Source: Escherichia coli O157 typing phage 14
Length of the DNA: 64,000 nt
Sequence record: KP869112
Reading direction: 5' to 3' (one strand)
The stretch's first letter is position 1, and every line of letters begins with the position of its first letter. Positions 27,573 through 42,411 of the stretch are shown here, in pieces. A program made the position numbers and the translations under genes. The notes beneath the pieces were generated by a model, which worked only from the letters and a program-made list of their open reading frames with translations, was not told the origin of the DNA and did no database searches.

Positions 27573-27574
27573 TT

Positions 27575-29073: not shown

Positions 29074-29162
29074 GATGTTTTCCTCTTTGTTTTGTGTGGG
29101 GGCAAACGTCTTGCCCCTTGAGTTTTAATATAGCAGGTTTTTAGGTTATTGCAACACTTTAT

Positions 29163-29786: not shown

Positions 29787-29820
29787 GATATTTTCTCCTA
29801 TTTTCTTTGTTAGTGGCGGG

Positions 29821-30094
29821 NNNNNNNNNNNNNNNNNNNNNNNNNNNNNNNNNNNNNNNNNNNNNNNNNNNNNNNNNNNNNNNNNNNNNNNNNNNNNNNN
29901 NNNNNNNNNNNNNNNNNNNNNNNNNNNNNNNNNNNNNNNNNNNNNNNNNNNNNNNNNNNNNNNNNNNNNNNNNNNNNNNNNNNNNNNNNNNNNNNNNNNN
30001 NNNNNNNNNNNNNNNNNNNNNNNNNNNNNNNNNNNNNNNNNNNNNNNNNNNNNNNNNNNNNNNNNNNNNNNNNNNNNNNNNNNNNNNNNNNNNN
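29821..30094. other. assembly gap (run of N)
   Basis: 274 consecutive n characters. Confidence 1.
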
Positions 30095-30247
30095 TTTAAT
30101 CACTGGACGGCCTTGCCAGTGCCCTTGGAGAAAGCGCGCTTTAACTTTATCGGTGGAACTATCACGCCACCAAACGGCTTTATTATTGCAGTAGTAAAAA
30201 TTATTCAGGACAACATCGACTTTATCAAAATTTTTTAATTTACGCAT
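30095..30247 (-). CDS. hypothetical protein, 3' end lost in assembly gap
   Basis: RBS GGAAGGAG before ATG at 30247; ORF runs into N gap. Confidence 0.4.
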
Positions 30248-30282
30248 GGCGTTTACTCCTTCCTTCTTGCTTTGATGTGGTT

Positions 30283-30311
30283 AGTATATCCGGACTATCC
30301 CAAGGTGTCAA
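30283..30311 (-). promoter_or_regulatory. sigma70-like promoter on minus strand (TTGACA, 17 nt, TATACT)
   Basis: Hexamers on minus strand ~35 nt upstream of the 30247 start. Confidence 0.5.
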
Positions 30312-30492
30312 GCTTTAAATAGAATCACTGTCAATAATATTTTTAACGCCATAAAACGGCCCTAGACGCTGTTTTCAGGTTAAGAAAGGGGATTGCATAG
30401 GTAGGGGCCTTTATGGCGCTTGTAGGGCCAACCAGGGGCGCTATCGGCGGGATAGAAATAAAAAGCCCCGCACAATGGCGGGGCGTTGGTTG

Positions 30493-30690
30493 CTATTTGT
30501 CTTTGTGGCGGTATCGTTCCGCCTGTCGTTCACGTTCCAAAAGCAGGCCCGGTAATTTGCGATCATAGTGATTTCTCCAGATCTTCCCGAACCTTTTCGG
30601 TTTATTCGGTTTATTGTTACGCTGGCGGCGTTCCGGCAGCTCTTCGGAATCGTGGGGGCGCTTTACAATTTTTTCGAAATTAATTTTCAT
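30493..30690 (-). CDS. small basic protein
   Basis: ATG with AAGGGGG RBS; arginine/lysine-rich. Confidence 0.4.
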   Translation of the reverse strand: MKINFEKIVKRPHDSEELPERRQRNNKPNKPKRFGKIWRNHYDRKLPGLLLERERQAERYRHKDK

Positions 30691-31033
30691 AAACGCCCCC
30701 TTTACTGATCTCAATATTTGCCTGAATCGCCCGGATACGACGTTTTATAGTCTCCTGATCCTTGCAATCATATCCCCAAAAGTCTACGATTTTTGCGCCG
30801 CCAGCCTTTAAGCGGTATAATGTTTCTTGCATCTTGTAAGCTGGGATCGGTCTCGGTGTTACCTGGTCCCCTTTCTCATCCTTGTACTTGATAATGTAGT
30901 CTTCATTGTCGTTGAATACCCAAAATGGGTATTCTGTAAGCGCGTTGCTCTCTTTTTCGTTTTTGGATTGGATCTTGTTTACAATTAAAGCCGTAGCAAT
31001 AGCGCCAATAATAAAACTTGCCCCGCTGATCAT
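30680..31033 (-). CDS. membrane-anchored protein
   Basis: ATG with AAAGGAGAAAG RBS; N-terminal TM helix. Confidence 0.45.
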   Translation of the reverse strand: MISGASFIIGAIATALIVNKIQSKNEKESNALTEYPFWVFNDNEDYIIKYKDEKGDQVTPRPIPAYKMQETLYRLKAGGAKIVDFWGYDCKDQETIKRRIRAIQANIEISKGGVYEN

Positions 31034-31109
31034 GTTACTTTCTCCTTTCATTGTGCTGATAAACTATCTTTATAGATGGCCCTGCTACCAGGACCACCGA
31101 AAAAACAGT

Positions 31110-31355
31110 TTATTTGACGATACCGACAAAACAGATCCCGCCTTCCCCTATATAGGCAACATCGGTAATTTTATAATTTGTCAAGATCCGCGTGTTCAGA
31201 TCATTAATAAAATCGGTCATCGCGTTGGTGTAGTTGTCTTCCGTGTCTAAGGCATAATCCCAGGTGTAAACCTTTTTACGTCCGAAGCCTTTTACCATGA
31301 TACGGGCGCTTTTGGTGTTGGTAGGGGCATAATATTTGGTGATTAGTGCTGCCAT
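31110..31355 (-). CDS. hypothetical protein
   Basis: RBS AGAGGAG. Confidence 0.5.
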   Translation of the reverse strand: MAALITKYYAPTNTKSARIMVKGFGRKKVYTWDYALDTEDNYTNAMTDFINDLNTRILTNYKITDVAYIGEGGICFVGIVK

Positions 31356-31398
31356 GGTTTTAACTCCTCTGAATTAGTTCAGTGTTAACAGTATAAAG

Positions 31399-31442
31399 TT
31401 TACTTTATTGATGGCCCTGAAGTCAAGGCCATCTAAAAATAA
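31399..31442. repeat. 45 bp conserved intergenic repeat, copy 2
   Basis: Near-identical to 27528 and 32019 copies; directly abuts stop of 31445 gene. Confidence 0.65.
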
Positions 31443-31444
31443 TC

Positions 31445-31786
31445 TTACTCGTTTTCTTCCAGCTCTGCAAGCTCTTCTTTTGCTTCTTCTAACTCTGTCT
31501 GTAGTTCCTGGTATTCTTCATCGTCCTCAATATCCAGGCTGTCGATGTAGTCGCTAAATCCGCAGCGGTAAGCGATAGGATCTAGCTCCTCGAGGATACG
31601 CGACGGAAGAAAAGAAATGTTTCCGATCATAATTTCGCCGTAGATCTCGTCTAACCATTCATCATAGTTTTCGTCGTACTTGTCCTCGTCGATTTCAAAG
31701 TTATCGATCTTATTCTCAAGGTCTGCGATCTGTTTTTTCAGCGCGGCGATCTGCATGGCTTTTTCTGCGGCGGTCATAGTAGTCAT
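31445..31786 (-). CDS. hypothetical acidic coiled-coil protein
   Basis: RBS AAAAGGAGAAAAAC. Confidence 0.5.
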   Translation of the reverse strand: MTTMTAAEKAMQIAALKKQIADLENKIDNFEIDEDKYDENYDEWLDEIYGEIMIGNISFLPSRILEELDPIAYRCGFSDYIDSLDIEDDEEYQELQTELEEAKEELAELEENE

Positions 31787-31865
31787 GGTGTTTTTCTCCT
31801 TTTGTGTGTTCTGGGAAGTTTTCCCGTCTATGTGTTTAGTATACTGATCTAAGTTAGCTTGTCAA

Positions 31866-31985
31866 TTAAAAGTTTAAGAAAAATTTTGCGATACCGTTGG
31901 CGCTACCCATCAACATTTGCGCCAGGATGTAACCAATGATGCAAACGATAATAGTTACCTTTGTGTGCTGGCGTGTAGTACTCAT
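31866..31985 (-). CDS. small hydrophobic peptide (39 aa)
   Basis: RBS AAGGGGG before ATG; TM helix. Confidence 0.4.
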   Translation of the reverse strand: MSTTRQHTKVTIIVCIIGYILAQMLMGSANGIAKFFLNF

Positions 31986-32018
31986 CTTTAAGCCCCCTTT
32001 CCGCTCAACTGTGGTTAG

Positions 32019-32063
32019 TTTACTTTATTGATGGCCCTGAAGTCAAGGCCATCTAAAAATAAA
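32019..32063. repeat. 45 bp conserved intergenic repeat, copy 3
   Basis: Near-identical to copies 1 and 2; directly abuts stop of 32065 gene. Confidence 0.65.
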
Positions 32064-32064
32064 C

Positions 32065-32469
32065 TCAGTAAGTTTTCAGTACTTTACCGTCCAACCTGTC
32101 AAGCTGGATCTCGATAGCTGCAGAAAACCTATTGTAAACCACATCGCCCATAGAATCCAACCAGTCTATGACATTATACACTTGCTCTTTGTTCTTGCAG
32201 GTCCGGATCCGTTTCATGATGTAAGCCGGATCAATATTGGTACTCTCGTTGGTGTTCCCCTGTACCTGGTTTGCCGTATTAGTTACATCTTTAATGGCCT
32301 TTACCACCACCTGGAATGGCTTTAAGGTGCCTTTTGCGTTCATCTCACGCGCTTTTGCGGCGCGGTTGTTATATGTTACACAACGGCGGCAAATGTTGAC
32401 CAAATGCATATCAATAATTTTTTCATCGTTTGCCAGTTCGTTCATGATGCGGCGTACGTTCTTATTCAT
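32065..32469 (-). CDS. hypothetical protein
   Basis: RBS AAAGGAAAAAG. Confidence 0.5.
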   Translation of the reverse strand: MNKNVRRIMNELANDEKIIDMHLVNICRRCVTYNNRAAKAREMNAKGTLKPFQVVVKAIKDVTNTANQVQGNTNESTNIDPAYIMKRIRTCKNKEQVYNVIDWLDSMGDVVYNRFSAAIEIQLDRLDGKVLKTY

Positions 32470-32552
32470 GATCTTTTTCCTTTGTGTTGGCGGGAAACAT
32501 TCCCGCCTTTTGTGCCTAGTTTACTTTAATTTTGCAGCGTGTCAATAATTTT

Positions 32553-32951
32553 TTATTCATGGGCGCATGTTACAATGTGCTTTTTATAGCCCAGGTGGTC
32601 AGCAAGTGCCGACAAAAACTCTTCTTCGTAGATCCAGCCGTCGGCAGTGATCCCCATAGCATTTAATGCGCTCTCAAGTGCTGCGTTAGCTTTATCATAA
32701 CCGTGACCGCTCGCCTTGCCGCCAGTATAGCCGTACTTATTGTTCTTGTTGTCGTGTATCCAAAAAACGCAGTAGTAAGTGTTCCCGCTGGCGGCGGCAT
32801 AATACCGGATCTCAGCTACTTCGTGCAAATTATTGTCATCGTCCAGGCCCACCAGATTATAAGCCTTGTAAAATCCACGATCACGGCGGCAGTTCTTGAC
32901 ATCAGAAAAAGAAAAGTCTGCATTATCAAAATTAAAGGTAGTGGTTTTCAT
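32553..32951 (-). CDS. hypothetical protein
   Basis: ORF-track ORF with purine-rich upstream region. Confidence 0.5.
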   Translation of the reverse strand: MKTTTFNFDNADFSFSDVKNCRRDRGFYKAYNLVGLDDDNNLHEVAEIRYYAAASGNTYYCVFWIHDNKNNKYGYTGGKASGHGYDKANAALESALNAMGITADGWIYEEEFLSALADHLGYKKHIVTCAHE

Positions 32952-33015
32952 GATTTTATCCTCTTAGTGTCTTTTGTGCTTTTAGTGTATTTGGTGTCGG
33001 ACTATATGTCAATAC

Positions 33016-33213
33016 TTATTTTTTATTAAACCAGTGGTTGATCTGACCTTTTGTCAGGGCGCAACGATTAAGCTGTTGCAGGGTATAGCTATGACCGCGA
33101 CGAAATTTATAAAGGCCTTGCCCGTTGTTGATGGTTACATCCACCCGGCAAATCACTTGATTGGTGACCACCTGGCGAGTGTTGCGACGTACTTTGATCC
33201 CGTATGCGTTCAT
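33016..33213 (-). CDS. hypothetical basic protein
   Basis: ATG with AAAGAGGATAAA RBS; ORF-track start 33291 is a TTG lying inside the promoter -35. Confidence 0.45.
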   Translation of the reverse strand: MNAYGIKVRRNTRQVVTNQVICRVDVTINNGQGLYKFRRGHSYTLQQLNRCALTKGQINHWFNKK

Positions 33214-33262
33214 AAATTTATCCTCTTTACTGGTTAGTGCGGTGTTGTTCACCTTGTAGGGT

Positions 33263-33291
33263 AATAATACCATGATTAACCTTGTTGTCAA
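33263..33291 (-). promoter_or_regulatory. sigma70-like promoter on minus strand (TTGACA, 17 nt, ATTATT)
   Basis: Hexamers on minus strand at the head of the 23-33 kb small-gene block. Confidence 0.5.
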
Positions 33292-33557
33292 CGACTATTT
33301 TAAATTATTTTTATGATAGAATCCACCTGCCGCCCCCGCCAGGTTAACCACCATTTTTTCGTACTCTTCTTTATGTTCCAACGCTCCCGCCATAGCCTTT
33401 TCAACCAGGGCGATAGCCTCAGCGTCATTAATCGCTACATTTTCCAGGGGATCATATTACCTTTCATTTTTGTACCTCCTCTCCAGTTGTTGCCTACCCT
33501 ATAGCATAGCCCTACCAGGTTTGCAAGCTTTCACTCTCCCCTGCCAGGCTGGCCCCG

Positions 33558-33600
33558 CCAGGTCCTGGCAGTGGGCGCACCTGGTTATAATTTTTTTTTT
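33558..33600 (+). terminator. hairpin (CCAGGT/ACCTGG and CTGCCAGG/CCTGGCAG) followed by T10 run
   Basis: Inverted repeats and ten consecutive T seen in sequence. Confidence 0.35.
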
Positions 33601-33607
33601 GAAAGGT

Positions 33608-33636
33608 GTTGACAGCGGCCCCGCCAGGTGGCACAA
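33608..33636 (+). promoter_or_regulatory. candidate promoter (TTGACA, 17 nt, TGgCACAAT)
   Basis: Perfect -35, TG-extended weak -10, immediately upstream of conserved element copy 2. Confidence 0.35.
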
Positions 33637-33653
33637 TATACCTATCGAAAGGA

Positions 33654-33690
33654 CGGCAGGCACCGGTGACGGGGGAGACAACCACCGGGG
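33654..33690 (+). ncRNA. candidate small RNA / regulatory element, copy 2 (CGGCAGGCACCGGTGACGGGGGAGACAACCACCGGGG)
   Basis: Promoter-proximal, no ORF, paralogous to 24548 and 33791 elements. Confidence 0.25.
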
Positions 33691-33754
33691 ATGGGCGCTG
33701 CATAAAATGAGAACGGTTATCATTATCATTTAAAAATTTATGCAAAAAATCCTT

Positions 33755-33783
33755 GCTTTCTTTGTCCTGTGTGATACTATAAT
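33755..33783 (+). promoter_or_regulatory. candidate promoter with perfect TATAAT -10 and weak -35
   Basis: TATAAT at 33778-33783 upstream of element copy 3. Confidence 0.3.
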
Positions 33784-33790
33784 AACAAGC

Positions 33791-33830
33791 CGGGGCAACA
33801 GGGGCCGGGAGACAATCACCGGGCCTGCCC
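33791..33830 (+). ncRNA. candidate small RNA / regulatory element, copy 3 (diverged)
   Basis: Shares GGGAGACAATCACCGGG core and downstream GAGAATGATTATCATT block with copy 2. Confidence 0.2.
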
Positions 33831-33959
33831 GTTATTCTGCAAACGAGAATGATTATCATTCAAAATTCTAAATGAGAACTCCTCACATTTAATAAATTTA
33901 ATTAGCATGCTAATTACCCTCCGTAACAATTTCCTATAAAACAGTATCCCATAAAATAT

Positions 33960-34440
33960 TCCCATATAGAAATTTTAAAAATCCATTTCTGAAAACGAAA
34001 AATCGATTTCGTCCCCAAAAATTTCAGGTCGAGATCCGGAACGATTTCCAGAAAATCCGATTCAGAAAACGAAAAACAGATCGAGTACTGAGAAATTTAT
34101 CGAGAAAAATTTTCAGAAAATCCAAGCCCTGAAATGAAAAGTAGATCGAGTACCTGGAAAGCTGCACCGCAACTTCAAGATAGTGGTTAGATTGTTACCA
34201 TAGAAGGTCAAGGGTAAGTGGAGGAAGTTCTGGTAGAGGGAGGTTAGCATGTGTGGGAAATCTATAATGGTGGCCTGGAATATGGTGCAAACGATAGGAT
34301 GAGTTATTCAGCTTGTCGCGCCTACTCTGAAAAATCCATTTTAGTTTTCGATCCATTTTCTGATTTTCTAAGAATTTTAAAATATCCAGCCTGGTGAAAT
34401 ATCAAAAGGAGGAAATCCATTTTAGAAATCCCCCTTATAC
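33960..34440. repeat. AT-rich repeat tract: AAATCCATTTT (x4), TTCAGAAAACGAAAAA-like (x2), GATCGAGTAC (x2), CAGAAAATCC (x2)
   Basis: Short direct repeats read in a ~0.5 kb ORF-free stretch. Confidence 0.5.
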
Positions 34441-34465
34441 TTGATATGCCAGGAATTTTCAAGTA

Positions 34466-34795
34466 TCAGTTGTCTTTGTTTTTAGGTTTGTACATGCGCA
34501 GAGGTATGGTCTTTGTAACATTCCATTTCCTCAACCCTTCCCAGCTCCAGTTGTGGGCGTGGTATCCGGTTATGCATGCACTACTGGGGTGATCGTAAGC
34601 ATAAGAGAACGCTAAGCGCACCAGGTGGGGCCAGTCCTTCCATGGTTGTGGACCGTAAGCTTTTCTCCAACACCGACACAAACTAAATGTCTCAAGGATA
34701 GGAAGGATAACAAACCCATACACTGTCACCAAAATAGCCAGCGCAATGATTGTCAGGAATACATACCCTGCAGTTGAAACGATGATCTCTGTCAT
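34466..34795 (-). CDS. membrane protein
   Basis: RBS AAAGGGGA; N-terminal TM helices. Confidence 0.5.
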   Translation of the reverse strand: MTEIIVSTAGYVFLTIIALAILVTVYGFVILPILETFSLCRCWRKAYGPQPWKDWPHLVRLAFSYAYDHPSSACITGYHAHNWSWEGLRKWNVTKTIPLRMYKPKNKDN

Positions 34796-34995
34796 TTGTC
34801 GTCCCCTTTCTTACGAATATAGATGTGAGAGCCTGCCTGTATATAAATTTCTCGACCATCCTCTGCAAAGATATGAAATACACGATCACCTTCGTACTCG
34901 ATACGAGATATCTTCATAATGGTCTTTCCACCTGGGATACGGATCTCGTCTCCCACAGCGATGTTCCATGCAGATTTAAGCTTAAACATCTGCAC
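34792..34995 (-). CDS. hypothetical protein
   Basis: RBS AAAGGAGGG. Confidence 0.5.
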   Translation of the reverse strand: MQMFKLKSAWNIAVGDEIRIPGGKTIMKISRIEYEGDRVFHIFAEDGREIYIQAGSHIYIRKKGDDK

Positions 34996-35227
34996 CCTCC
35001 TTTGGGAACTTAAACTCTGGCATAGCCATATACGCTACAACAGGGTTGTGATCAAAGTAGAACTGACCGTTAATTATCCCGGTTTTGTCCACATAGTTAC
35101 CAGATCCTGCAAGAACAACCTCGCAAGCTCCGAAATCCACCTTGCCATTCTCATCTGCCATGGCTACAATATACTTTCCTAGAGGCATGTTTTTAACGCC
35201 GTCTACAAATGTCCACCCTTTGTTCAT
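34982..35227 (-). CDS. hypothetical protein
   Basis: RBS GCAGGAGATAAAG. Confidence 0.5.
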   Translation of the reverse strand: MNKGWTFVDGVKNMPLGKYIVAMADENGKVDFGACEVVLAGSGNYVDKTGIINGQFYFDHNPVVAYMAMPEFKFPKEGADV

Positions 35228-35248
35228 AACTTTATCTCCTGCATTCTC

Positions 35249-35581
35249 TTAAGGTAACCAGTAAACAATCTCACCTTTCAGCTTCATGTCGTTTCCAACA
35301 TAAATTTGCCAGCCATCCATCTTAGCAACTGTAGGCCCAAAGTCATCCGCACCTCTTACCTCTTTCCAGGCTCCGTAGTCAGGTTGCCAGATATAGAATC
35401 CACCTTCTTTGTCCCATGCTCCGTACACTACGTTTAACAGGTTTCCCATTGCAACAATGGTGGGCCGTGGGAATAATACATCTACAGATGCGCCACAATT
35501 TCGGGTATCTTTTAAGTTGCAATCCCAAAAGATGTCTGCCAGTGTGGCAGCGATAGCTTTACGTCTTTCTAATGTTACCAT
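35249..35581 (-). CDS. hypothetical protein
   Basis: ORF-track ORF; moderate RBS. Confidence 0.5.
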   Translation of the reverse strand: MVTLERRKAIAATLADIFWDCNLKDTRNCGASVDVLFPRPTIVAMGNLLNVVYGAWDKEGGFYIWQPDYGAWKEVRGADDFGPTVAKMDGWQIYVGNDMKLKGEIVYWLP

Positions 35582-35590
35582 ATATCATAC

Positions 35591-35782
35591 TCACTTGTTG
35601 TTAATAAGTTCTAAAACTTTCTGTCTTACTTTGTCAAGGTCTGTTGATTCAAAAACTGTACGATATCCCCAACTTTGCCCATAGGAGTGACTGCAATCCC
35701 CGTAGCACCATTGCTCAATTTGATAGTATTCAAGGAACGGGTGCTGTCTAACTATGATACCATCCCGGTTAAAAATTACCAT
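35591..35782 (-). CDS. hypothetical protein
   Basis: ORF-track ORF. Confidence 0.45.
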   Translation of the reverse strand: MVIFNRDGIIVRQHPFLEYYQIEQWCYGDCSHSYGQSWGYRTVFESTDLDKVRQKVLELINNK

Positions 35783-35845
35783 AATACATCACTCTCTGTT
35801 AGTTTATGCGTATATTATACACTGCAGTTTTCAGATGTCAACCTC

Positions 35846-36040
35846 TTACAGATTGCTCCAGTACAATCGGCATTTACATTTTGGGCAATGAGGTTCTTTT
35901 ATGTAATAACCGTCAGTCTTTGGAACACTTTTTGGTGCAGTTTTAAGATTGTACCTGGTAAAACATCGGAAGCAGGTTACCTCTCCCACCTGTTGATCGT
36001 TGATCCACTCACCGGAGTAAAGTTCTTTCTTGTTTCTCAT
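35846..36040 (-). CDS. small zinc-ribbon protein
   Basis: ATG with GGGAGAG RBS; CxxC...CxxC; ORF-track start 36097 is an extension. Confidence 0.45.
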   Translation of the reverse strand: MRNKKELYSGEWINDQQVGEVTCFRCFTRYNLKTAPKSVPKTDGYYIKEPHCPKCKCRLYWSNL

Positions 36041-36291
36041 AATTCTCTCCCAAATCCTCTGCAATCTTATACCAAAATCTCCAGCCAGAAAGCACACGGG
36101 AACACTTTGAGGATTGAATCTTTACCTGGTTCAGCAGTTCTTTTTCCGTAGGGTAGGTAGAAATACCCTCCTGCAGATTCGAACACAGCCCCTTCGGTTG
36201 TATCTATCACAGCTAGAATTAAGATTTTAGTCTCCACAGTGCTCTCCTCTCTTAGTTGTCGTGGAAACTATATCACCTCAGAAGATGGCCG

Positions 36292-36750
36292 TCAACACTT
36301 TTTGTACTCCACCACGACAATATCTATGTCGAAAGTGGCAAGGTTAATAACGTCCTCTACGTGTTCCCACTTCAAACCGCCTATGCCGCACCCGATCTTA
36401 GGGATGTAGAATGGTAAAGTCGATCCGCTGAATACTTCATTGACTAGCTCAAAGCCTTTCAGGATTGAGAAATACTCAGCATTAGGTCCTGGGTAGAACT
36501 GGGTATATAGATTGATTCCGTAGACAATACCTATCGGAGATAAGTGCTCCCATCGGGAGAACGCACCCAGTTTACTTAGGCAACCGTATCTAGTCTCTTT
36601 GTCGGCTGACAGTGCTTGAGGAAACTCACGGGCAATCTGTTTTGCTATACCCTTGCCCATTGTGTGGAAGCAGTTACAACCGTGGATCAGGTGACCAGCA
36701 CCGCTCTTAAAAAGGGAGATTAAATCTCCCTCTACAGTATCAATAATCAC
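36292..36750 (-). CDS. macro domain protein (ADP-ribose binding/processing)
   Basis: GTG start with GAGGAG RBS; VIIDTVEGDLISL...AGHLIHGCNCFHTMGKGIAKQI and FYIPKIGCGIGGL match macro-domain glycine-rich motifs; ORF-track start 36831 overlaps upstream gene. Confidence 0.65.
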   Translation of the reverse strand: MIIDTVEGDLISLFKSGAGHLIHGCNCFHTMGKGIAKQIAREFPQALSADKETRYGCLSKLGAFSRWEHLSPIGIVYGINLYTQFYPGPNAEYFSILKGFELVNEVFSGSTLPFYIPKIGCGIGGLKWEHVEDVINLATFDIDIVVVEYKKC

Positions 36751-37165
36751 GGTAAGCCAGCTCCTCTTCCGCAATTTCAAAAAACTCAGTCCAGCACTGT
36801 GGCATATTGGAGTTACCGAAGTGGCTTTCATAGTAAAGGTTCTTACCGCTAGGAAGGTAGAAATCTGTTACCTCATAAAATCCACAATCGTCGCACTCAC
36901 CTTCTTCAAACTTGGCCTTAACCTTAATACCGAGGAAGGTGAAAAGTTTATGGACATCTTCAGTTTCGAACTCCCAGGGAATGTTGTTTTCCGCATCGGT
37001 GTAGAACTGGATCAGCAGACCATTGTCCAGTTTACCAAAATACTCTGTGAAGTAACTTCCTTCCCAGAAATCTTTATGACAAATAATATCCATGCGTTTG
37101 CCCATAATAATGGTGTGAGCGTTTTGGGCATCGTCACGAATCAGTTTTGGCATTTCATAGATCAT
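36740..37165 (-). CDS. hypothetical protein
   Basis: RBS GGAGAA. Confidence 0.5.
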   Translation of the reverse strand: MIYEMPKLIRDDAQNAHTIIMGKRMDIICHKDFWEGSYFTEYFGKLDNGLLIQFYTDAENNIPWEFETEDVHKLFTFLGIKVKAKFEEGECDDCGFYEVTDFYLPSGKNLYYESHFGNSNMPQCWTEFFEIAEEELAYRDY

Positions 37166-37233
37166 CTTAGTTCTCCGGGTTCAACAGGTGGTGGCGCTAC
37201 AGGAAGATCATAAAACATAGCTATCACAGTCTC

Positions 37234-37431
37234 TTACACAGGAATTGCTTCAAACAGGCCGTTATCTATACCGTCCTTCAGATAGAGATTATATTCTATG
37301 TCGGTATCTGTGTAAAGGGCAGCATCCAGCATTCTATCTGTGAGTCCATCCATTGGGTGGAGAAACCACCACCCACGCCAGTCAAAGTAACAGCCTGGTG
37401 CATCTTCTCTTACACGGATTCGATAAATCAT
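37234..37431 (-). CDS. hypothetical protein
   Basis: RBS CAGGAGG. Confidence 0.45.
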   Translation of the reverse strand: MIYRIRVREDAPGCYFDWRGWWFLHPMDGLTDRMLDAALYTDTDIEYNLYLKDGIDNGLFEAIPV

Positions 37432-37502
37432 GGGCAGTGGCCTCCTGTCAGTTATACATCCCAGTTTTCTTCGTTCATCACGTCCTCCCGTTCTATGAAG
37501 TT

Positions 37503-37531
37503 ATAATTGCACACCTTTCAACCTGTGTCAA
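37503..37531 (-). promoter_or_regulatory. candidate promoter on minus strand (TTGACA, 17 nt, AATTAT)
   Basis: Hexamers on minus strand. Confidence 0.3.
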
Positions 37532-37944
37532 CAGAAAACTTCAACAAATTCTTCCACAGTTTTAATGTCGTGGGAAAAAGGTTTACGGCTATAACGGGCA
37601 ATAGCACTATCAACCACCGCCCGGTACTCTAAATCTTCAGAGTATTTCATGAAGCATTGTAGCGTCTCTGGACAGATAGCTAAATAGCTCCACCACCCCT
37701 CTTCAGATTGGTAGTCGAATCCCATACTCTCCAACCATGAAGCGTACACACCTGCACCCTCTAGCCAGTGGGTATTTTCATCAAGAAATTTATTCACCGA
37801 CATGTGTGCTTCCAGGCACTCGTCAAGCTCTTTTCCGTTAACCAGCCATGCACTGACTGTGGCGCATCCGAGGTCTACAGATTGAGTTGACAGGTTATAT
37901 TGGTCATAGTTCTCAGGTTTAACAATGATATCTTCTAATGTCAT
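37528..37944 (-). CDS. hypothetical protein
   Basis: RBS TAAGGAGA. Confidence 0.5.
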   Translation of the reverse strand: MTLEDIIVKPENYDQYNLSTQSVDLGCATVSAWLVNGKELDECLEAHMSVNKFLDENTHWLEGAGVYASWLESMGFDYQSEEGWWSYLAICPETLQCFMKYSEDLEYRAVVDSAIARYSRKPFSHDIKTVEEFVEVFC

Positions 37945-37962
37945 TTTTCAGATCTCCTTATA

Positions 37963-37991
37963 CAAAAATGCCCCACCCTTTCGGGCAGGGC
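37963..37991 (-). terminator. intrinsic terminator (GCCCTGCCC-GAAA-GGGTGGGGC + UUUUUG on minus strand)
   Basis: Hairpin with GAAA tetraloop and U tract 3' of the 38007 gene; identical hairpin recurs at 48099. Confidence 0.65.
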
Positions 37992-38006
37992 TATGTTAAC
38001 TAGATG

Positions 38007-39233
38007 TTAAAACGGTATGTCATCATCAAAGGCGTACTGTGCTGGATTCTGATCCATCGGGTCATCTTCCTCATCATTTACAGGAGGAGCGTCTACAGTG
38101 TTTTGCTGTGGAGCTGCTTCCTGTTTGGCAGCCTGAGGTTCTTGATGGTCAGTTGACCCAGCACCGTTCTTGATCCAATCGTACAACGGCTCAGCCAGAT
38201 TAGTCAAGACATCTTTTGCTTCTGCAGTAATTGCCACTGCAAAATCATCAACTTTCGTTTTCTTGTCAATACGGCGACAAGCGTTCAACACCGCATTACC
38301 GACACTGGCACCTACTTCATCTTCAGTTCGGTTGGTGGCTTGAGCATACTCTTTCTTAAGCTCAATAGTGACTACGTGTAGTGTTTTAGCCACTCCTAGT
38401 GGGTCGTCTACCTTAAACCCGCGATCCAGGATGATTTGCAACGCATTGATGCTATGCCCCGTTTCCACACCGATAGGGTCGTAAGAGGATTTACGCTTGC
38501 CACCAGAGCCTTGAGTGCCGTTCTCTGCCTTAGGAGGATAGGCCTTGAAACCACTGATAATGTTTCCGGTGTCTTTGTCAACAATGGCTGCAACACGACC
38601 ACCTACCACCAGGTCTTTAAGCTGCTCATCAGTTACAACCATAGCACCTTCGCCAATCTTGTGGTCATTAACAGTAACCACGTTGCCAACAATCTGAGTC
38701 ACATCACCATAGATGCGTAAAACGTCCTGATTGGCATTCTGCTGAGGTTTCTGCTTCTGGCCTTGTGATTGTGCACCTTGTTGCTGTTTTTGCTGCTGAG
38801 TCGCTGCTGGAGCCTCTCCTGCACCCAGCTTAACCATCTTAGCCAGTGAGCCCTTGTAATAGGTCTTACCGTTATGCTCGTTTGCCTTCAAAGGGATATT
38901 TACGATCCATCCTGGCGTTACGGTTTCCCACTTGTCATCAATCTTAACAGAGACAGAGTCTTGATGACCTGGTTTAAGCAGCTTATCACCCATGCTGATC
39001 CAGACTTCTTCACCACCTTGAAGCAGGTTATCAGAGGAATCCAGTTCAGAAATCAGTAAAGAGATGGTGTGGCTGGATTCAATTTTCTTACCTTGCCACA
39101 CAGTGGTTTTAATACCTGTTGTAGGATCAGCACCTTTGATAGGCTTGATGCTAACACGTTTAATCATGCCGTGAGCCAGTAAAACAGTTTCACGCGGATT
39201 CATTGGGTTAGCGAATTGTTGAATAACGCTCAT
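38007..39233 (-). CDS. putative ssDNA-binding protein (SSB-like acidic C-terminal tail)
   Basis: C-terminus ends DDDIPF, the hallmark tail of bacterial SSB; Gln/Gly-rich linker; RBS AAGGAGA; N-terminal fold not verified. Confidence 0.45.
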   Translation of the reverse strand: MSVIQQFANPMNPRETVLLAHGMIKRVSIKPIKGADPTTGIKTTVWQGKKIESSHTISLLISELDSSDNLLQGGEEVWISMGDKLLKPGHQDSVSVKIDDKWETVTPGWIVNIPLKANEHNGKTYYKGSLAKMVKLGAGEAPAATQQQKQQQGAQSQGQKQKPQQNANQDVLRIYGDVTQIVGNVVTVNDHKIGEGAMVVTDEQLKDLVVGGRVAAIVDKDTGNIISGFKAYPPKAENGTQGSGGKRKSSYDPIGVETGHSINALQIILDRGFKVDDPLGVAKTLHVVTIELKKEYAQATNRTEDEVGASVGNAVLNACRRIDKKTKVDDFAVAITAEAKDVLTNLAEPLYDWIKNGAGSTDHQEPQAAKQEAAPQQNTVDAPPVNDEEDDPMDQNPAQYAFDDDIPF

Positions 39234-39598
39234 TATTTGTCTCCTTGTTCTTCGTTAGTGCTTGCCGTGTGTGCGAACCCTGCTTGAATTAATTTGTCCT
39301 GAACTTGAGCCAACAGGCCCATTGCAAAACTTGTGGTCCCAGAGAGGGCCATCAGCATATCCCGTTGTTGAGCTACCCAACCTAAGGCATAGTCCAAACG
39401 ACGATATTTTTCTTCTTCACGCAAAGCTTGGAATAATTGTTCAGCCTCTGGCTGTTGTGTGAGCTCCTGAAGTCTTCCCATGAAAGAAGAAAGCACTAGC
39501 AGAAGAGACACTTGATCTTTACTTAACCCTAAGAAAAATTCTTGAGGTTGTTCTTGCTCGTTCATCGCAACCGACGCTTGATCGTTCATTTGTTCCAT
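39233..39598 (-). CDS. hypothetical protein
   Basis: RBS CGGAGA. Confidence 0.5.
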   Translation of the reverse strand: MEQMNDQASVAMNEQEQPQEFFLGLSKDQVSLLLVLSSFMGRLQELTQQPEAEQLFQALREEEKYRRLDYALGWVAQQRDMLMALSGTTSFAMGLLAQVQDKLIQAGFAHTASTNEEQGDK

Positions 39599-39681
39599 TA
39601 TGGAATCTCCGATTTTATTTGAACAACATAGAAGGAGACACTATTTTAGCATCCCCTTCTGTAAATTACAATAGGTATTTG

Positions 39682-39927
39682 TTAGCCAATCACTTCGAAA
39701 GTTCCCCAATTCCCGTCCAGCAGGCAGGTGATCGGATCTCCATCGTCGTCAAAGATTTCAAAGTTTTCAGCATCCAGGATGTGGCCCTCGAACACAATAC
39801 TCTCGTCGCCACCACCAGAAATAACAGCGTATTCCTTACCTTGAGTCAAGTTTTGACACCCTTTGCCACCAAAACCTACTTCCACACAACGTACTTTCTG
39901 TCCTGCGCGAGCAACTACTTCAGCCAT
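39682..39927 (-). CDS. hypothetical protein
   Basis: RBS CAGGAGA. Confidence 0.5.
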   Translation of the reverse strand: MAEVVARAGQKVRCVEVGFGGKGCQNLTQGKEYAVISGGGDESIVFEGHILDAENFEIFDDDGDPITCLLDGNWGTFEVIG

Positions 39928-39944
39928 CTTAAGGTCTCCTGATA

Positions 39945-40247
39945 TTAATCGTCAAGTTCAAAATAGATTTTAACAGCTTCATCAAAGATTGGAATCCCGA
40001 TGTTGTTGATAAGCTGCCAAACTACCATATCTTTACCTGGGTCTGGGAGAATGTCAACCTTTCTCCATGCGCTGTATATCCAGTTCGGACCACCTTCTGC
40101 ACTAACTGGCAGATTTTCACCAGCCTCCTGCAGATACTTATACAGCAAAAGATATTCTGGATACTCTAGAACACTGTCCTCTGTAGTGTATAGCAGTTCA
40201 CGGTATACTTTTAAGAACCCTGCGGGGGTGATGTTTTCAGTCTTCAT
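39945..40247 (-). CDS. hypothetical protein
   Basis: ATG with AGGAGAGG RBS; ORF-track start 40265 is an extension. Confidence 0.45.
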   Translation of the reverse strand: MKTENITPAGFLKVYRELLYTTEDSVLEYPEYLLLYKYLQEAGENLPVSAEGGPNWIYSAWRKVDILPDPGKDMVVWQLINNIGIPIFDEAVKIYFELDD

Positions 40248-40626
40248 TTGCTGCCTCTCCTGCATTCATCAGATCTGCCATAGCGTCACCAACGAAGAGA
40301 ACAACCACATCGTTGACAGCGTCAGTATCATCTTTGTTGACGTTGCTGAATTTAGGACACACAGCAATGATCATATAGACACCGTTACCCACCTGAACTG
40401 TCCGTGTGGTGCACATCATGGCGGTATTTGTGCCTTCTTTGAAGGCGAAGCCTTGAAGACGCTCCTCTAAAGTGTTACCGGTAGATTTCAGAAGCGCCAG
40501 CTCGTCCAAGGCATAGATGATGTCTCCGGAAGTTAGTGTTGCCTTGCCATCAGACACCATAATCACTCCATCAGCACCGTCAAGCTTAGAGGCTTCAAAG
40601 ATATCAATATCCCAAATATTTTTCAT
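40237..40626 (-). CDS. hypothetical protein
   Basis: ATG with GAGGAAG RBS. Confidence 0.5.
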   Translation of the reverse strand: MKNIWDIDIFEASKLDGADGVIMVSDGKATLTSGDIIYALDELALLKSTGNTLEERLQGFAFKEGTNTAMMCTTRTVQVGNGVYMIIAVCPKFSNVNKDDTDAVNDVVVLFVGDAMADLMNAGEAANED

Positions 40627-40886
40627 CACGCTTCCTCGTCGTCTAAGGAGTTGAAGATTTCACCGAAGTATTCTAAGACTTCTAGCTCCCGTGTGGTGCA
40701 GAAAACACAGTCACCGTTGTCATCCTCGATAACGGCCTCTTTACCCAGAATATCTACTTCAAGTTCATCGTTCAACAGGACGGCCCCTGTGTAAACTTTG
40801 TCAGCTGTGCAGTCCCGAAAAGCAAAGTCCTTCTCCAGATAGTCTGGCTTAACCTTGGCTTTAATTCGTTGGTATTGTTTGGTCAT
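40626..40886 (-). CDS. hypothetical protein (paralog of 40950-41204)
   Basis: ATG with AAAGGGGA RBS; FRDCT / DDNGDCVFCT motifs shared with neighbour. Confidence 0.45.
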   Translation of the reverse strand: MTKQYQRIKAKVKPDYLEKDFAFRDCTADKVYTGAVLLNDELEVDILGKEAVIEDDNGDCVFCTTRELEVLEYFGEIFNSLDDEEA

Positions 40887-40938
40887 TGCTGTGGTCCCCT
40901 TTCGTTTTGATAGGGCCATTATATTAGGCCCTATCACT

Positions 40939-40967
40939 GTTGTCAAGTATTAATGTTCAGGTTTTAC
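40939..40967 (-). promoter_or_regulatory. sigma70-like promoter on minus strand (TTGACA, 17 nt, TATAAT)
   Basis: Perfect hexamers on minus strand; -10 lies in loop of 9 bp hairpin GATAGGGCC/GGCCCTATC. Confidence 0.5.
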
Positions 40968-41204
40968 AAAAACGACTTCATTAACAGTGCACCAGACAGA
41001 GTCTCCTTCATCATCTTTAAAGGTAAGGCACTGTGCCGAGTTTTCCAGCTCATCGATCTCTTCTTGTGATAAAGGGGCCCCTTCTTCCAGAAGGGCTTTT
41101 ACCAGAGGGTTCTCACAAAACTCTGCTTCATAAATTGCACCGACTGTGCAATCTTTAAAAGCTCGGTCATTTGCAACGCATTCTGGCTTCAAAGTAATTT
41201 TCAT
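40950..41204 (-). CDS. hypothetical protein (paralog of 40626-40886)
   Basis: RBS AAGGAGA. Confidence 0.5.
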   Translation of the reverse strand: MKITLKPECVANDRAFKDCTVGAIYEAEFCENPLVKALLEEGAPLSQEEIDELENSAQCLTFKDDEGDSVWCTVNEVVFVKPEH

Positions 41205-41280
41205 CTTGGCAGTCTCCTTAGTTATTTAAAAATCAACGCTCTGTTTGTGTGAAGCATCTTATATCTAATCTTACTTCTTG

Positions 41281-41652
41281 TCAATGGCTATTTTCAATCA
41301 GCCACACAGGGTCGAGGTAAATTTGTTGGCGTGTTGCCCAATGACAAACTTCATTGTACATCTGAATCTCTTTGTCCGTCAGTTCACGAATAGGCTCATC
41401 TATACCCTCATTTTTGTGGTAATCCCAGTCGGCATCGATTTCCCACAACCATGACTTGTTGTCACCACGCTTACGCACACAGAAGTCACCAGGACGGCCT
41501 GCCAGTGCATTTAAGAACTCGTTCTCCGCTCGCTCCTGGAGAATACTAAGGAGCAAAACGTTGGAGCATGACCGTAAAATATGCTTCAGCTCACAATCAT
41601 CAATCTCAACTTCAATACGTTGTTTGACTGTGTGGGTACCTTTTACTAACAT
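41281..41652 (-). CDS. hypothetical protein
   Basis: ATG with AGAGGAGG RBS. Confidence 0.5.
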   Translation of the reverse strand: MLVKGTHTVKQRIEVEIDDCELKHILRSCSNVLLLSILQERAENEFLNALAGRPGDFCVRKRGDNKSWLWEIDADWDYHKNEGIDEPIRELTDKEIQMYNEVCHWATRQQIYLDPVWLIENSH

Positions 41653-41662
41653 CCTACCTCCT

Positions 41663-41857
41663 CTAAACGAACTCTGCAAGAGTTGTGTTGTTCACTGCAC
41701 CGCAGTAAATGGAATATCCCAGCCCATTATAGTGTAAAAACCACGGCGTGCCGAAATTATCTTTCACGTAGACATCGCCGTTGTTTGTAAAGGGCCAATA
41801 TTCTTCACCAAGGGTAAAATACCTATTCATACCCTCAGCCAGATACTTTACTTTCAT
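41663..41857 (-). CDS. hypothetical protein (paralog of 41854-42081)
   Basis: Shared ...WF..H...G.Y.IYG...LA.FV pattern. Confidence 0.5.
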   Translation of the reverse strand: MKVKYLAEGMNRYFTLGEEYWPFTNNGDVYVKDNFGTPWFLHYNGLGYSIYCGAVNNTTLAEFV

Positions 41858-42081
41858 AGGCCCTCTTCAACAGCTACAAACTTGGCAAGCAGGCTGGTTC
41901 CGTAGATATGATACTCACCGTTTGCCAGATGGGAGATAAACCAGGCAATCCCTTCCTCGTCTTTAATCATCTTGTTTGCACGATTTTTATCGTAATAAAC
42001 CTCGTAGGTCTCTCCTTCTTTAAAGAAGGACAGGTCTGTCATCTTTTCTTCTACAAAAGTAGCTTTAACCAAAGTTGTCAT
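41854..42081 (-). CDS. hypothetical protein
   Basis: RBS AAGAAGGAGA. Confidence 0.5.
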   Translation of the reverse strand: MTTLVKATFVEEKMTDLSFFKEGETYEVYYDKNRANKMIKDEEGIAWFISHLANGEYHIYGTSLLAKFVAVEEGL

Positions 42082-42362
42082 TGATCGGTCTCCTTCTTGT
42101 TAAGTCTGAATACTGCAATAATAGCATTCCCAAGGTGCAGTGTCAAGTCATTTCCAAGATACCACAGCATCCCACGGTCATCTTTAATGAAAGGGTAACA
42201 ATCTGGTGCCTTCCAGACATTGTACACTTTCCCAACCTGAAAGAAATCAGGACCTGTTGGGATTTTGGTGCCAGGCCACACTTGAGATACCTGAACACAC
42301 TCCACCTGCATAATAACAGGAATGGTCATGGATGTAAATGTTTTTGTTGGCTCTACTACCAT
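42078..42362 (-). CDS. hypothetical protein
   Basis: ATG with AAAGAGGAGA RBS; ORF-track start 42452 would overlap the polymerase gene. Confidence 0.45.
   Translation of the reverse strand: MVVEPTKTFTSMTIPVIMQVECVQVSQVWPGTKIPTGPDFFQVGKVYNVWKAPDCYPFIKDDRGMLWYLGNDLTLHLGNAIIAVFRLNKKETDQ
42118..42146 (-). promoter_or_regulatory. candidate internal promoter on minus strand (TTGACA, 17 nt, TATTAT)
   Basis: Hexamers on minus strand ~40 nt upstream of 42081 start. Confidence 0.4.
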
Positions 42363-42411
42363 AAAAGTCTCCTCTTTGCTCAACAGCACCTCCCTGTGCT
42401 GATAGTTTACA

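What the first reader, a model, noticed from the sequence alone, without database searches (positions are those of the whole stretch)
36292..36750. Macro-domain protein: candidate ADP-ribosylation countermeasure
The glycine-rich motifs (GDL...AGHLIHGCNCFHTMGKGIA...IPKIGCGIGGL) fit macro domains, which bind or hydrolyse ADP-ribose adducts. In phages such proteins are plausible counters to host ADP-ribosylation-based defences or signalling. The gene starts at a GTG with a good RBS overlapping the upstream stop, a start the ORF track obscures.
Basis: partly seen in the sequence, partly recalled or inferred. Interest (0 to 1): 0.6.

Follow-up and report, generated by a model that had tools for sequence, protein, structure and literature searches.

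The report
Phage macrodomain, likely anti-DarT2 enzyme

Summary
Window 36292..36750 (minus strand) is a 152-codon gene. It starts at GTG 36750, has a GAGGAG ribosome-binding site 10 nt upstream, and overlaps the upstream gene by 11 nt.

- **Fold:** it passes Pfam Macro (28 bits, cut-off 22) and PHROG 335 (E 2e-59). The model has pLDDT 97 and is closest to TARG1, Poa1p, DarG, BT1257 and SCO6735.
- **Source:** the window is a Vequintavirus (97% nucleotide identity to EdH4 and APECc02). Relatives annotate this gene as "macro domain protein" or "phosphatase".
- **Family:** it is 39% identical over its full length to T4 Tk.4. It is 70% identical to the gene at the tk.4 position of Krischvirus W115.
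- **Function by homology:** a 2025 preprint names tk.4 adfM because T4 lacking it becomes sensitive to DarTG2. The most likely role is removing DarT2's ADP-ribose from thymidines in phage DNA. This is untested for this phage.
- **Mechanistic nuance:** the catalytic Lys of DarG, TARG1 and PhiKZ AdfM is an invariant Gln (Q84) here and in T4 Tk.4. SCO6735 has the same Gln and cleaves thymidine-linked ADP-ribose.
- **Context:** no ADP-ribosyltransferase or NADAR gene was found in the window.

Novelty and interest are low.

The parts
36292..36750 (-). Macrodomain gene: 152 codons plus TGA stop, a stand-alone single-domain protein of the Tk.4/AdfM family
   Evidence: Translation. Pfam Macro 28 bits against cut-off 22. 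PHROG 335 E 2e-59. 39% identical to T4 Tk.4, E 3e-41. AlphaFold2 pLDDT 97.1. Same CDS annotated in HdK5 and APECc02.
36748..36750 (-). GTG start codon
   Evidence: Sequence. It is the codon equivalent to the ATG of the 70%-identical W115 gene. The full-length close homologues begin here (P0001-P0016).
36761..36766 (-). Shine-Dalgarno-like GAGGAG, 10 nt upstream of the GTG and inside the upstream gene's coding sequence
   Evidence: Read directly from the minus-strand sequence GCGGAAGAGGAGCTGGCTTACCGTG.
36643..36684 (-). Codons 23-36 (HGCNCFHTMGKGIA): first ADP-ribose-binding loop. It includes H23, invariant G24 and N26, and the G-x-G motif G32/G34.
   Evidence: Invariant or near-invariant columns in 61 homologues. 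Aligns with N27 of SCO6735 and N22 of DarG. N27S nearly abolishes SCO6735 activity (PMC9411070). PhiKZ AdfM N23A has reduced activity.
36499..36501 (-). Codon Q84: invariant glutamine at the position of the catalytic lysine of DarG (K80), TARG1 (K84) and PhiKZ AdfM (K78)
   Evidence: Alignments. Invariant in 61 homologues. The equivalent SCO6735 Q85A mutant is inactive (PMC9411070).
36376..36402 (-). Codons 117-125 (PKIGCGIGG): second glycine-rich, diphosphate-binding loop. G124 sits where TARG1 has the catalytic D125.
   Evidence: P117 and G120 are invariant; I119, G122 and G125 are at least 90% conserved.
36740..37165 (-). Upstream 141-aa gene of unknown function (PHROG 8157). Its last 11 nt overlap the macrodomain gene, so the two are probably co-transcribed and translationally coupled. 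This is context, not a demonstrated partner.
   Evidence: ORF list. No Pfam hit; PHROG 8157 of unknown function.

Best explanation
The gene encodes a stand-alone macrodomain ADP-ribosylglycohydrolase of the ALC1/TARG1-like class. It belongs to the same family as T4 Tk.4 (AdfM).

Proposed mechanism:
1. The gene lies in a block of small minus-strand genes downstream of the replication genes and is probably made early in infection.
2. When the host carries a DarTG2 toxin-antitoxin system, infection releases DarT2. DarT2 puts ADP-ribose on N3 of thymidines in single-stranded phage DNA and so blocks replication.
3. The phage enzyme binds the ADP-ribose in its glycine-lined cleft and cleaves the ribose-thymine bond. 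This restores normal DNA and releases free ADP-ribose.

The protein has Gln84 held by Asn26 and lacks the lysine of DarG and TARG1. Catalysis is therefore expected to follow the SCO6735 type: Gln positions the distal ribose and a water molecule does the chemistry. It is not expected to follow the lysine route.

Shown here: the gene, its start, the fold, the family, the conserved residues and the homology to Tk.4. Inferred: the substrate (thymidine-linked ADP-ribose on DNA), the timing of expression and the protective effect.
For: **Fold.**
- Pfam Macro is above its cut-off.
- The model has pLDDT 97.1.
- Best solved matches are TARG1 (E 3e-10, TM 0.78), Poa1p, T. aquaticus and M. tuberculosis DarG, BT1257 and SCO6735.
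- The family profile hits the same set at E 1e-17 to 3e-13.

**Family.**
- 39% identity over the full length to T4 Tk.4, E 3e-41, with shared motifs HGCNCFHTMG, NLYTQFxPGPN and P+IGxGIG.
- 70% identity to the macro gene at the tk.4 position (between vs and tk) of the T4-like Krischvirus W115. That gene is itself 44% identical to T4 Tk.4.
- The second-best viral structure match is tk.4 of Acinetobacter phage 133, TM 0.89.

**Genetics of the homologue.** tk.4 was the single hit in a T4 transposon screen on a DarTG2 host. A clean knockout became DarTG2-sensitive (preprint 10.1101/2025.11.20.689424).

**Chemistry.**
- SCO6735 has the same Gln and Asn. It cleaves thymidine-linked ADP-ribose on DNA and rescues cells from DarT. 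Its Q85A mutant is dead and N27S is nearly dead (PMC9411070).
- N26 and Q84 are invariant in 61 homologues.

**Defence-library matches.** The only PADLOC and NCBIfam hits are DarG models, over the macrodomain half only: E 2.9e-13 and 2.4e-12.

**Orphan status.** No ADP-ribosyltransferase, NADAR, Nudix, Sir2 or TIR family appears among 98 other window ORFs.

**Accessory character.** Natural deletion or frameshift alleles exist in otherwise intact relatives. This fits a conditionally needed counter-defence gene.
Against: - No experiment exists for any Vequintavirus copy. The Bas54 (Vequintavirinae) transposon library in the same preprint was not reported on DarTG2.
- The T4 result is genetic only and comes from a preprint. 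No in-vitro activity of a Tk.4-type protein was found in the literature searched.
- 39% identity leaves room for a shifted substrate.
- PhiKZ gp104, the phage macrodomain with in-vitro data, is Lys-type and only 20% identical. Its biochemistry cannot simply be transferred.
- The protein lacks the longer lysine-bearing mobile loop that the SCO6735 authors link to efficient DNA processing. It also has Gly where SCO6735 has Val25.
- Macrodomains of this class also act on protein glutamate-, RNA uracil- and phosphate-linked ADP-ribose.
Confidence: 0.65

Rival explanations
1. It is an ADP-ribose eraser, but its main target is not DarT2-modified DNA. Alternatives include ADP-ribose on proteins (Glu/Asp-linked), on RNA uracil or RNA/DNA phosphate ends, or marks left by another host ADP-ribosyltransferase defence or toxin.
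For: SCO6735, the closest biochemically studied Gln-type enzyme, also de-modifies PARP1 E988Q and uracil-ADP-ribosylated RNA. TARG1 also acts on phosphate-linked marks. The best structural match is TARG1, a protein and nucleic-acid eraser.
Against: The only in-vivo phenotype known for a family member (T4 tk.4) is specific to DarTG2. SCO6735 was reported inactive on 2'-OH RNA ADP-ribosylation. The same paper's results also report it inactive on 5'-phosphate ADP-ribosylation, although its discussion says the opposite. The only hits in the defence and NCBI libraries are DarG models.
Confidence: 0.17
2. It processes small ADP-ribose derivatives, not macromolecular adducts. Candidates are ADP-ribose-1''-phosphate (the origin of the 'phosphatase' annotation), O-acetyl-ADP-ribose, and TIR/Thoeris-type signals such as cyclic ADPR isomers or His-ADPR.
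For: RefSeq and PHROG call it 'phosphatase'. Yeast Poa1p, an ADP-ribose-1''-phosphate phosphatase, is among the best sequence and fold matches. It shares the IH-x-CNC motif, with His23 at the same position. A comparative-genomics survey argued that phage macrodomains mainly target low-molecular-weight ADP-ribose derivatives (PMC9503650).
Against: The 'phosphatase' name is an inherited annotation, not a test. No report of a phage macrodomain degrading Thoeris signals was found. The T4 homologue's phenotype is explained by DNA de-modification.
Confidence: 0.1
3. It acts without catalysis. Either it binds and blocks the DarT2 toxin directly, as the antitoxin does, or it sequesters ADP-ribose-containing molecules.
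For: Catalytically dead SCO6735 Q85A still inhibited DarT in vitro, more strongly than DarG or TARG1 mutants did.
Against: The catalytic-site residues N26 and Q84 are invariant across 61 homologues, which argues for selection on catalysis. The protein lacks the C-terminal DarT-binding domain of DarG.
Confidence: 0.05
4. It reverses or tunes ADP-ribosylation carried out by the phage's own transferase, as a T4-style Alt/Mod system might need.
For: T4 encodes both ADP-ribosyltransferases and Tk.4 (general knowledge). Macro-transferase pairs exist in some phages (PMC9503650).
Against: No ADP-ribosyltransferase or sirtuin family was detected among 98 other ORFs of this 64-kb window, and the neighbouring genes have no such domains. 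The rest of the roughly 137-kb genome was not scanned.
Confidence: 0.03

Closest known systems
T4 Tk.4 = AdfM (anti-DarT factor macrodomain; preprint 10.1101/2025.11.20.689424)
   Same: Stand-alone protein of about 150 aa. It aligns end to end at 39% identity, E 3e-41. It has the same motifs and the same Asn/Gln active-site pair, and falls in the same PHROG 335. A 70%-identical copy sits at the tk.4 locus of Krischvirus W115.
   Different: It sits in a different phage subfamily and a different gene neighbourhood, not between vs and tk. Anti-DarTG2 activity has been shown only for the T4 copy.
Streptomyces coelicolor SCO6735 (PDB 5E3B) and Bacteroides BT1257 (PDB 2FG1): Gln-type ALC1-like macrodomains
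   Same: Gln at the catalytic-lysine position, the supporting Asn, the His, and Gly in place of TARG1 Asp125. SCO6735 cleaves thymidine-linked ADP-ribose and protects against DarT. Both are orphans with no adjacent toxin.
   Different: Only 24-26% identity. The mobile loop after the Gln is about 5-6 residues shorter and lacks the extra lysines. Gly24 replaces Val25. These are cellular proteins, whereas this one is viral.
DarG antitoxin macrodomain of DarTG2 (T. aquaticus 5M31/5M3E, M. tuberculosis 5M3I)
   Same: Same fold and same class. It is the best profile match in the PDB, E 1e-17, and the only PADLOC/NCBIfam hit. The conserved Asn is shared, and the expected substrate is the same.
   Different: DarG has catalytic Lys80 where this protein has Gln84. 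DarG carries a C-terminal DarT-binding domain and sits next to darT; this protein has neither.
PhiKZ gp104 AdfM (PMC13309987)
   Same: A phage-encoded orphan macrodomain that counters DarTG2, with removal of DarT2's ADP-ribose from DNA shown in vitro.
   Different: Only 20% identical. It is Lys-type (K78) like DarG and is imported into the phage nucleus. It looks like a separate lineage that shares the same name.
Human TARG1/OARD1 (PDB 4J5R/4J5S)
   Same: Best Foldseek match: E 3e-10, TM 0.78, rmsd 2.6 A. It also cleaves thymidine- and uracil-linked ADP-ribose.
   Different: The TARG1 catalytic dyad Lys84/Asp125 corresponds to Gln84/Gly124 here.
Yeast Poa1p ADP-ribose-1''-phosphate phosphatase (PDB 6LFQ-6LFU)
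   Same: Shares the N-terminal IH-x-CNC...G-x-G motif and the fold. It is the source of the 'phosphatase' label.
   Different: The sequence match is confined mostly to the N-terminal loop. There is no evidence that this phage family acts on ADP-ribose-1''-phosphate.

Membership tests
Macro domain superfamily (Pfam PF01661) | Sequence match to the family model above the curated threshold | tested here: met
   28 bits against a gathering score of 22, E 2.2e-6.
Macro domain superfamily (Pfam PF01661) | Three-layer alpha/beta macro fold with a glycine-lined ADP-ribose cleft | tested here: met
   AlphaFold2 pLDDT 97.1, pTM 0.91. Foldseek probability 1.00 to many ADP-ribose-bound macrodomain structures. 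The G-x-G loop and the second Gly-rich loop are conserved.
Tk.4 / AdfM family of T4-like phages | Full-length homology to T4 Tk.4 as a single-domain protein of about 150 aa | tested here: met
   39% identity over 153 columns, E 3e-41. 70% identity to the tk.4-locus gene of Krischvirus W115. PHROG 335 E 2e-59.
Tk.4 / AdfM family of T4-like phages | Same conserved active-site residues as T4 Tk.4 (His, Asn, Gln, Gly-rich loops) | tested here: met
   Alignment A2. N26 and Q84 are invariant in 61 homologues.
Tk.4 / AdfM family of T4-like phages | Needed by the phage to overcome DarTG2 | not testable with these tools
   Known only for T4 tk.4. No Vequintavirus data were found.
Gln-type ALC1-like macrodomains (SCO6735 subgroup) | Gln at the position of DarG Lys80 / TARG1 Lys84, with the supporting Asn | tested here: met
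   Q84 and N26 align with SCO6735 Q85 and N27 in both the profile and the MAFFT alignments.
Gln-type ALC1-like macrodomains (SCO6735 subgroup) | Extended mobile loop (about 5 residues longer, with Lys89) and Val25 as the backbone water-positioning residue | tested here: not met
   There is a gap opposite the SCO6735 GMKTGSKG loop, and Gly24 stands opposite Val25. It therefore works like SCO6735 at the Gln/Asn pair but is not a member of that narrow subgroup.
DarG antitoxin (NCBIfam NF048014, PADLOC DarG) | Whole-protein score above the curated cut-off, and a two-domain architecture with a C-terminal DarT-binding domain | tested here: not met
   46.8 bits against a cut-off of 250. Only profile positions 3-141 of 338 are matched. 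PADLOC matches positions 4-142 of 329.
DarG antitoxin (NCBIfam NF048014, PADLOC DarG) | Catalytic lysine (K80) | tested here: not met
   Gln84 occupies that position.
DarG antitoxin (NCBIfam NF048014, PADLOC DarG) | Adjacent darT toxin gene | tested here: not met
   The neighbours have no ADP-ribosyltransferase domain, and none was found among 98 window ORFs.
TARG1/OARD1 | Lys84/Asp125 catalytic dyad | tested here: not met
   Gln84 and Gly124 stand at the aligned positions (the TARG1 sequence was entered from memory, and its numbering matches the published K84/D125).
Poa1p-type ADP-ribose-1''-phosphate phosphatase | Phosphatase activity on ADP-ribose-1''-phosphate | not testable with these tools
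   Only the N-terminal motif and the fold are shared. The 'phosphatase' product name in RefSeq and PHROGs is inherited.

The most novel reading that the evidence does not exclude
Under this reading, the Tk.4-type phage macrodomains, including this one, are not miniature DarG copies. They would be Gln-type enzymes that work like SCO6735 and ALC1, forming a mechanistically separate lineage from the Lys-type PhiKZ AdfM. Like SCO6735, they might erase several kinds of ADP-ribose mark: thymine on DNA, uracil on RNA and acidic residues on proteins. They might even block the transferase by binding it. One 152-residue protein could then blunt more than one ADP-ribosyltransferase defence. The 70% identity between the Vequintavirus and Krischvirus copies would reflect recent exchange of such a general-purpose module between unrelated E. 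coli myoviruses.
Probability: 0.25. Interest if true: 0.45.

Novelty: already known. Interest (0 to 1): 0.22.

Why it matters
The practical value is better annotation. More than a hundred Vequintavirus genomes label this gene "hypothetical protein", "phosphatase" or "macro domain protein". It can reasonably be relabelled as a putative AdfM-type anti-DarT2 factor, which is relevant when choosing therapeutic phages against DarTG2-carrying E. coli.

The one point that goes slightly beyond the papers read here concerns the catalytic residue. The T4/Vequintavirus AdfM lineage has the SCO6735-type glutamine, not the DarG lysine. The two proteins now both called AdfM (T4 Tk.4 and PhiKZ gp104) are therefore probably mechanistically different enzymes. 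This can be tested with two point mutants.

Tried and rejected
- **Long ORF from ATG 36831 (179 aa).** Rejected. The 27-residue extension overlaps the upstream gene in another frame, lies outside the fold, and is absent from the full-length close homologues and from the W115 gene. One record, NHEP1, annotates it.
- **Neighbouring genes as functional partners.** Ten flanking proteins gave no Pfam family except a phage zinc-binding domain, and only PHROGs of unknown function.
- **Search for a transferase, NADAR, Nudix, Sir2 or TIR gene in the window.** The Pfam scan of 98 ORFs found none. The rest of the genome was not scanned. The author annotation of HdK5 was too sparse to help.
- **Promoter and terminator scan.** There is a mild excess of sigma-70-like sites: 17 found against 9.9 +/- 3.6 expected. 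This is only weak support for early expression.
- **Rfam and tRNA scans of the window.** Nothing was found.
- **Literature on a phage macrodomain degrading Thoeris signals.** None was found.
- **The LeRoux 2022 DarTG paper** was not available in the library. Its content is cited only through PMC11825919.
- **Residue-level structural superposition.** This could not be done because model coordinates are not exposed. Active-site equivalences rest on profile and MAFFT alignments that agree with each other.

Full report
**1. What is in the sequence**

The finding lies on the minus strand. Reading from 36750 down to 36292 gives 152 codons and a TGA stop. The product begins (V/M)IIDTVEGDLISLFKSGAGHLIHGCNCFHTMGKGIA and contains IPKIGCGIGGL, exactly as quoted.

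The mechanical ORF continues upstream to an ATG at 36831, giving 179 aa. The GTG at 36750..36748 is preceded by GAGGAG at 36766..36761, a 10-nt spacer. It sits 8 nt before the TGA (36742..36740) of the upstream 141-aa gene, so the two genes overlap by 11 nt.

Four things support the GTG start:
- The curated record of phage HdK5 and the RefSeq record of APECc02 annotate the same 459-nt CDS.
- The full-length close homologues start at this point with MII(D/G/N)(T/I/V)V (P0001-P0016, among the 94 database homologues).
- The 70%-identical gene of phage W115 has an ATG at the equivalent codon, 15 nt after the preceding gene.
- The first strand of the predicted fold begins at residue 2.

One record, NHEP1, annotates the long form.

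**2. Where the window comes from**

The 6 kb around the gene is 97% identical to Escherichia phages EdH4, APECc02, nomine, magaca, FFH2 and HdK5, among 119 records. All are Vequintavirus (rV5-like myoviruses of about 137 kb).

The gene lies in a long run of small minus-strand genes downstream of rIIA/rIIB, helicases, two methylases and the DNA polymerase. Its ten nearest neighbours have no known function. The region has a mild excess of sigma-70-like promoter matches. That fits early expression but does not prove it.

**3. What the protein is**

Sequence evidence:
- Pfam Macro (PF01661) is matched at 28 bits against a cut-off of 22.
- PHROG 335, labelled "phosphatase", is matched at E 2e-59.
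- A profile of 61 homologues hits M. tuberculosis DarG (E 1e-17), BT1257 (7e-17), SCO6735 (3e-16), T. aquaticus DarG (7e-16), TARG1 (2e-15) and Poa1p (2e-14).

Structure evidence:
- An AlphaFold2 model built on 61 homologues has pLDDT 97.1 and pTM 0.91.
- Its best solved-structure matches are human TARG1 (E 3e-10, TM 0.78), yeast Poa1p, the DarG macrodomains of T. aquaticus and M. tuberculosis, BT1257 and SCO6735.

These proteins form the ALC1/TARG1-like class of macrodomains. In the defence-system and NCBI naming libraries the only hits are DarG models. They cover only the macrodomain half of those models and score far below the equivalog cut-off of 250 bits, at 46.8 bits. The protein is therefore an orphan, antitoxin-like macrodomain without DarG's toxin-binding domain.

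**4. Link to a characterised phage protein**

- tblastn finds homologues in 2,717 of 50,697 phage records. In T4-like phages they lie at the tk.4 locus next to vs.
- T4 Tk.4 itself aligns end to end at 39% identity, E 3e-41. It shares the motifs HGCNCFHTMG, NLYTQFxPGPN and P+IGxGIG.
- Krischvirus W115, a T4 relative, carries a 70%-identical copy at the position syntenic with tk.4: regB, vs, macro gene, three small genes, tk. That copy is 44% identical to T4 Tk.4.
- The second-best viral structure match is tk.4 of Acinetobacter phage 133.

A 2025 preprint reports that tk.4 was the single T4 gene depleted in a transposon library grown on a DarTG2 host. A clean knockout became DarTG2-sensitive, and the authors renamed the gene adfM (10.1101/2025.11.20.689424).

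Independently, the PhiKZ macrodomain gp104, also named AdfM, was shown to remove DarT2's ADP-ribose from DNA in vitro and to be needed on DarTG2 hosts (PMC13309987). gp104 is only 20% identical to the window protein.

**5. Active site**

Invariant residues in the 61-sequence family alignment are G24, N26, G34, A36, N80, Q84, P117 and G120.

The HMMER profile alignments and a MAFFT alignment agree on where Q84 sits:
- Opposite Q84 stands the Gln of T4 Tk.4, Q85 of SCO6735 and the Gln of BT1257.
- At the same column, DarG (K80), PhiKZ gp104 (K78) and TARG1 (K84) have lysine.
- TARG1's second catalytic residue, D125, corresponds to G124 here.

For SCO6735 the literature shows the following (PMC9411070):
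- Q85A abolishes activity, and N27S nearly does.
- The enzyme cleaves thymidine-linked ADP-ribose on DNA faster than DarG or TARG1 does.
- It rescues cells from DarT.
- The Gln distinguishes the SCO6735/ALC1 homologues from the DarG/TARG1 homologues.

The window protein and T4 Tk.4 therefore carry the SCO6735-type catalytic pair. They lack SCO6735's longer lysine-bearing loop and have Gly where SCO6735 has Val25. The preprint compares Tk.4 with M. tuberculosis DarG. In the passages retrieved from the two AdfM papers the Gln/Lys difference is not mentioned. It implies that the two proteins called AdfM are mechanistically distinct.

**6. Most likely mechanism and its rivals**

Best explanation, confidence about 0.65:
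1. The phage makes the protein, probably early in infection.
2. On a DarTG2 host, released DarT2 ADP-ribosylates thymidines in single-stranded phage DNA.
3. The macrodomain hydrolyses the ribose-thymine bond, with Gln84 and Asn26 positioning the distal ribose.
4. Replication continues.

Shown here: the gene, its start, the fold, the family, the conserved residues and the orphan status. Inferred: the substrate and the phenotype.

Rival explanations:
- A different or broader macromolecular substrate (0.17). SCO6735 and TARG1 also act on protein-linked, RNA-uracil-linked or phosphate-linked ADP-ribose.
- Small-molecule ADP-ribose derivatives, the origin of the "phosphatase" name and the general prediction of PMC9503650 (0.10). 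No phage macrodomain acting on Thoeris signals was found.
- Non-catalytic inhibition or sequestration (0.05).
- Control of a phage-encoded transferase (0.03). No transferase was found among 98 other window ORFs.

**7. Dispensability**

Some relatives carry broken alleles.
- A 135.5-kb contig with the same gene order has a 121-aa fusion ORF in place of the 141-aa gene plus the macro gene. About 490 bp are missing (window 36503..37000), with roughly 10 bp of overlap at the junction.
- Other contigs carry an internal in-frame deletion or frameshifts (P0019, P0037, P0052).

This fits an accessory counter-defence gene. Assembly error cannot be excluded for the frameshifted alleles.

**8. Verdict**

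The gene is not new. Near-identical copies are already deposited and annotated as macro domain protein or phosphatase. The family's anti-DarTG2 role has been published for T4, and for a distant analogue in PhiKZ.

What remains open is the direct test in a Vequintavirus and the biochemical meaning of the Gln-type site. Interest is low (0.22).

Noticed in passing
window 20480..22980: A stretch of about 2.5 kb where the plus-strand gene block (1..20477) and the minus-strand block (22982..60255) converge. It has only small ORFs (91 aa or less), no tRNA and no Rfam match, and GC falls to 0.33-0.35 at 22000..22800. The HIDEN-SEQ preprint notes a roughly 2-kb intergenic region between oppositely transcribed genes of the Vequintavirinae phage Bas54 that tolerates no transposon insertion. 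It may be the same region.
   Followed up: partly
L007 2501..2866 (Logan contig ERR11560567_708), equivalent to window 36292..37165: A natural deletion allele. A 121-aa in-frame fusion of the N-terminus of the upstream 141-aa gene with the C-terminal half of the macrodomain. Window 36503..37000 is missing, and the junction lies at a short shared QFY-coding stretch right at codon Q84.
   Followed up: yes
L005 1501..1956 (Escherichia phage W115, Krischvirus): A T4-like Straboviridae phage carries a macro gene at the tk.4 locus that is 70% identical to the Vequintavirus one but only 44% identical to T4 Tk.4. This suggests exchange of the gene between unrelated E. coli myovirus lineages.
   Followed up: partly
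model m581ca0205d2b against BFVD: The best viral structure match (TM 0.93, 39% identity) is part of a 302-aa Marseillevirus protein named 'SNF2 subfamily protein'. This recalls the SNF2-macrodomain architecture of ALC1, whose macrodomain also has the Gln.
   Followed up: no
search result for window 34000..40000: Sixteen records named 'Campylobacter phage' (for example C12, MG065635, 137.6 kb, unannotated) are about 97% identical to this E. coli Vequintavirus region. Mislabelled hosts or contaminated isolates look likely.
   Followed up: no
L006 720..1259 (phage NHEP1): This record annotates the macro gene from the upstream ATG (540 nt, overlapping the upstream gene by 92 nt). Public annotations disagree on the start codon.
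   Followed up: yes
window 1..20500 and 40000..64000: Other recognisable content of the window:
- aerobic ribonucleotide reductase small chain
- anaerobic NrdD with its radical-SAM activase
- glutaredoxin
- PhoH
- a Clp protease
- a ribosome-hibernation-factor-like protein (PF02482)
- a T7 gp1.1-like protein
- two N6/N4 DNA methylases
- PIF1 and DnaB helicases
- family A DNA polymerase
- a DUF2201/VWA metallopeptidase-like protein
- a cell-wall hydrolase

   Followed up: no
window 35849..36043 (minus strand): A small 65-aa protein two genes downstream of the macro gene matches Pfam Phage_zn_bind_2 (PF23903, E 8e-23). Its function is unknown.
   Followed up: no
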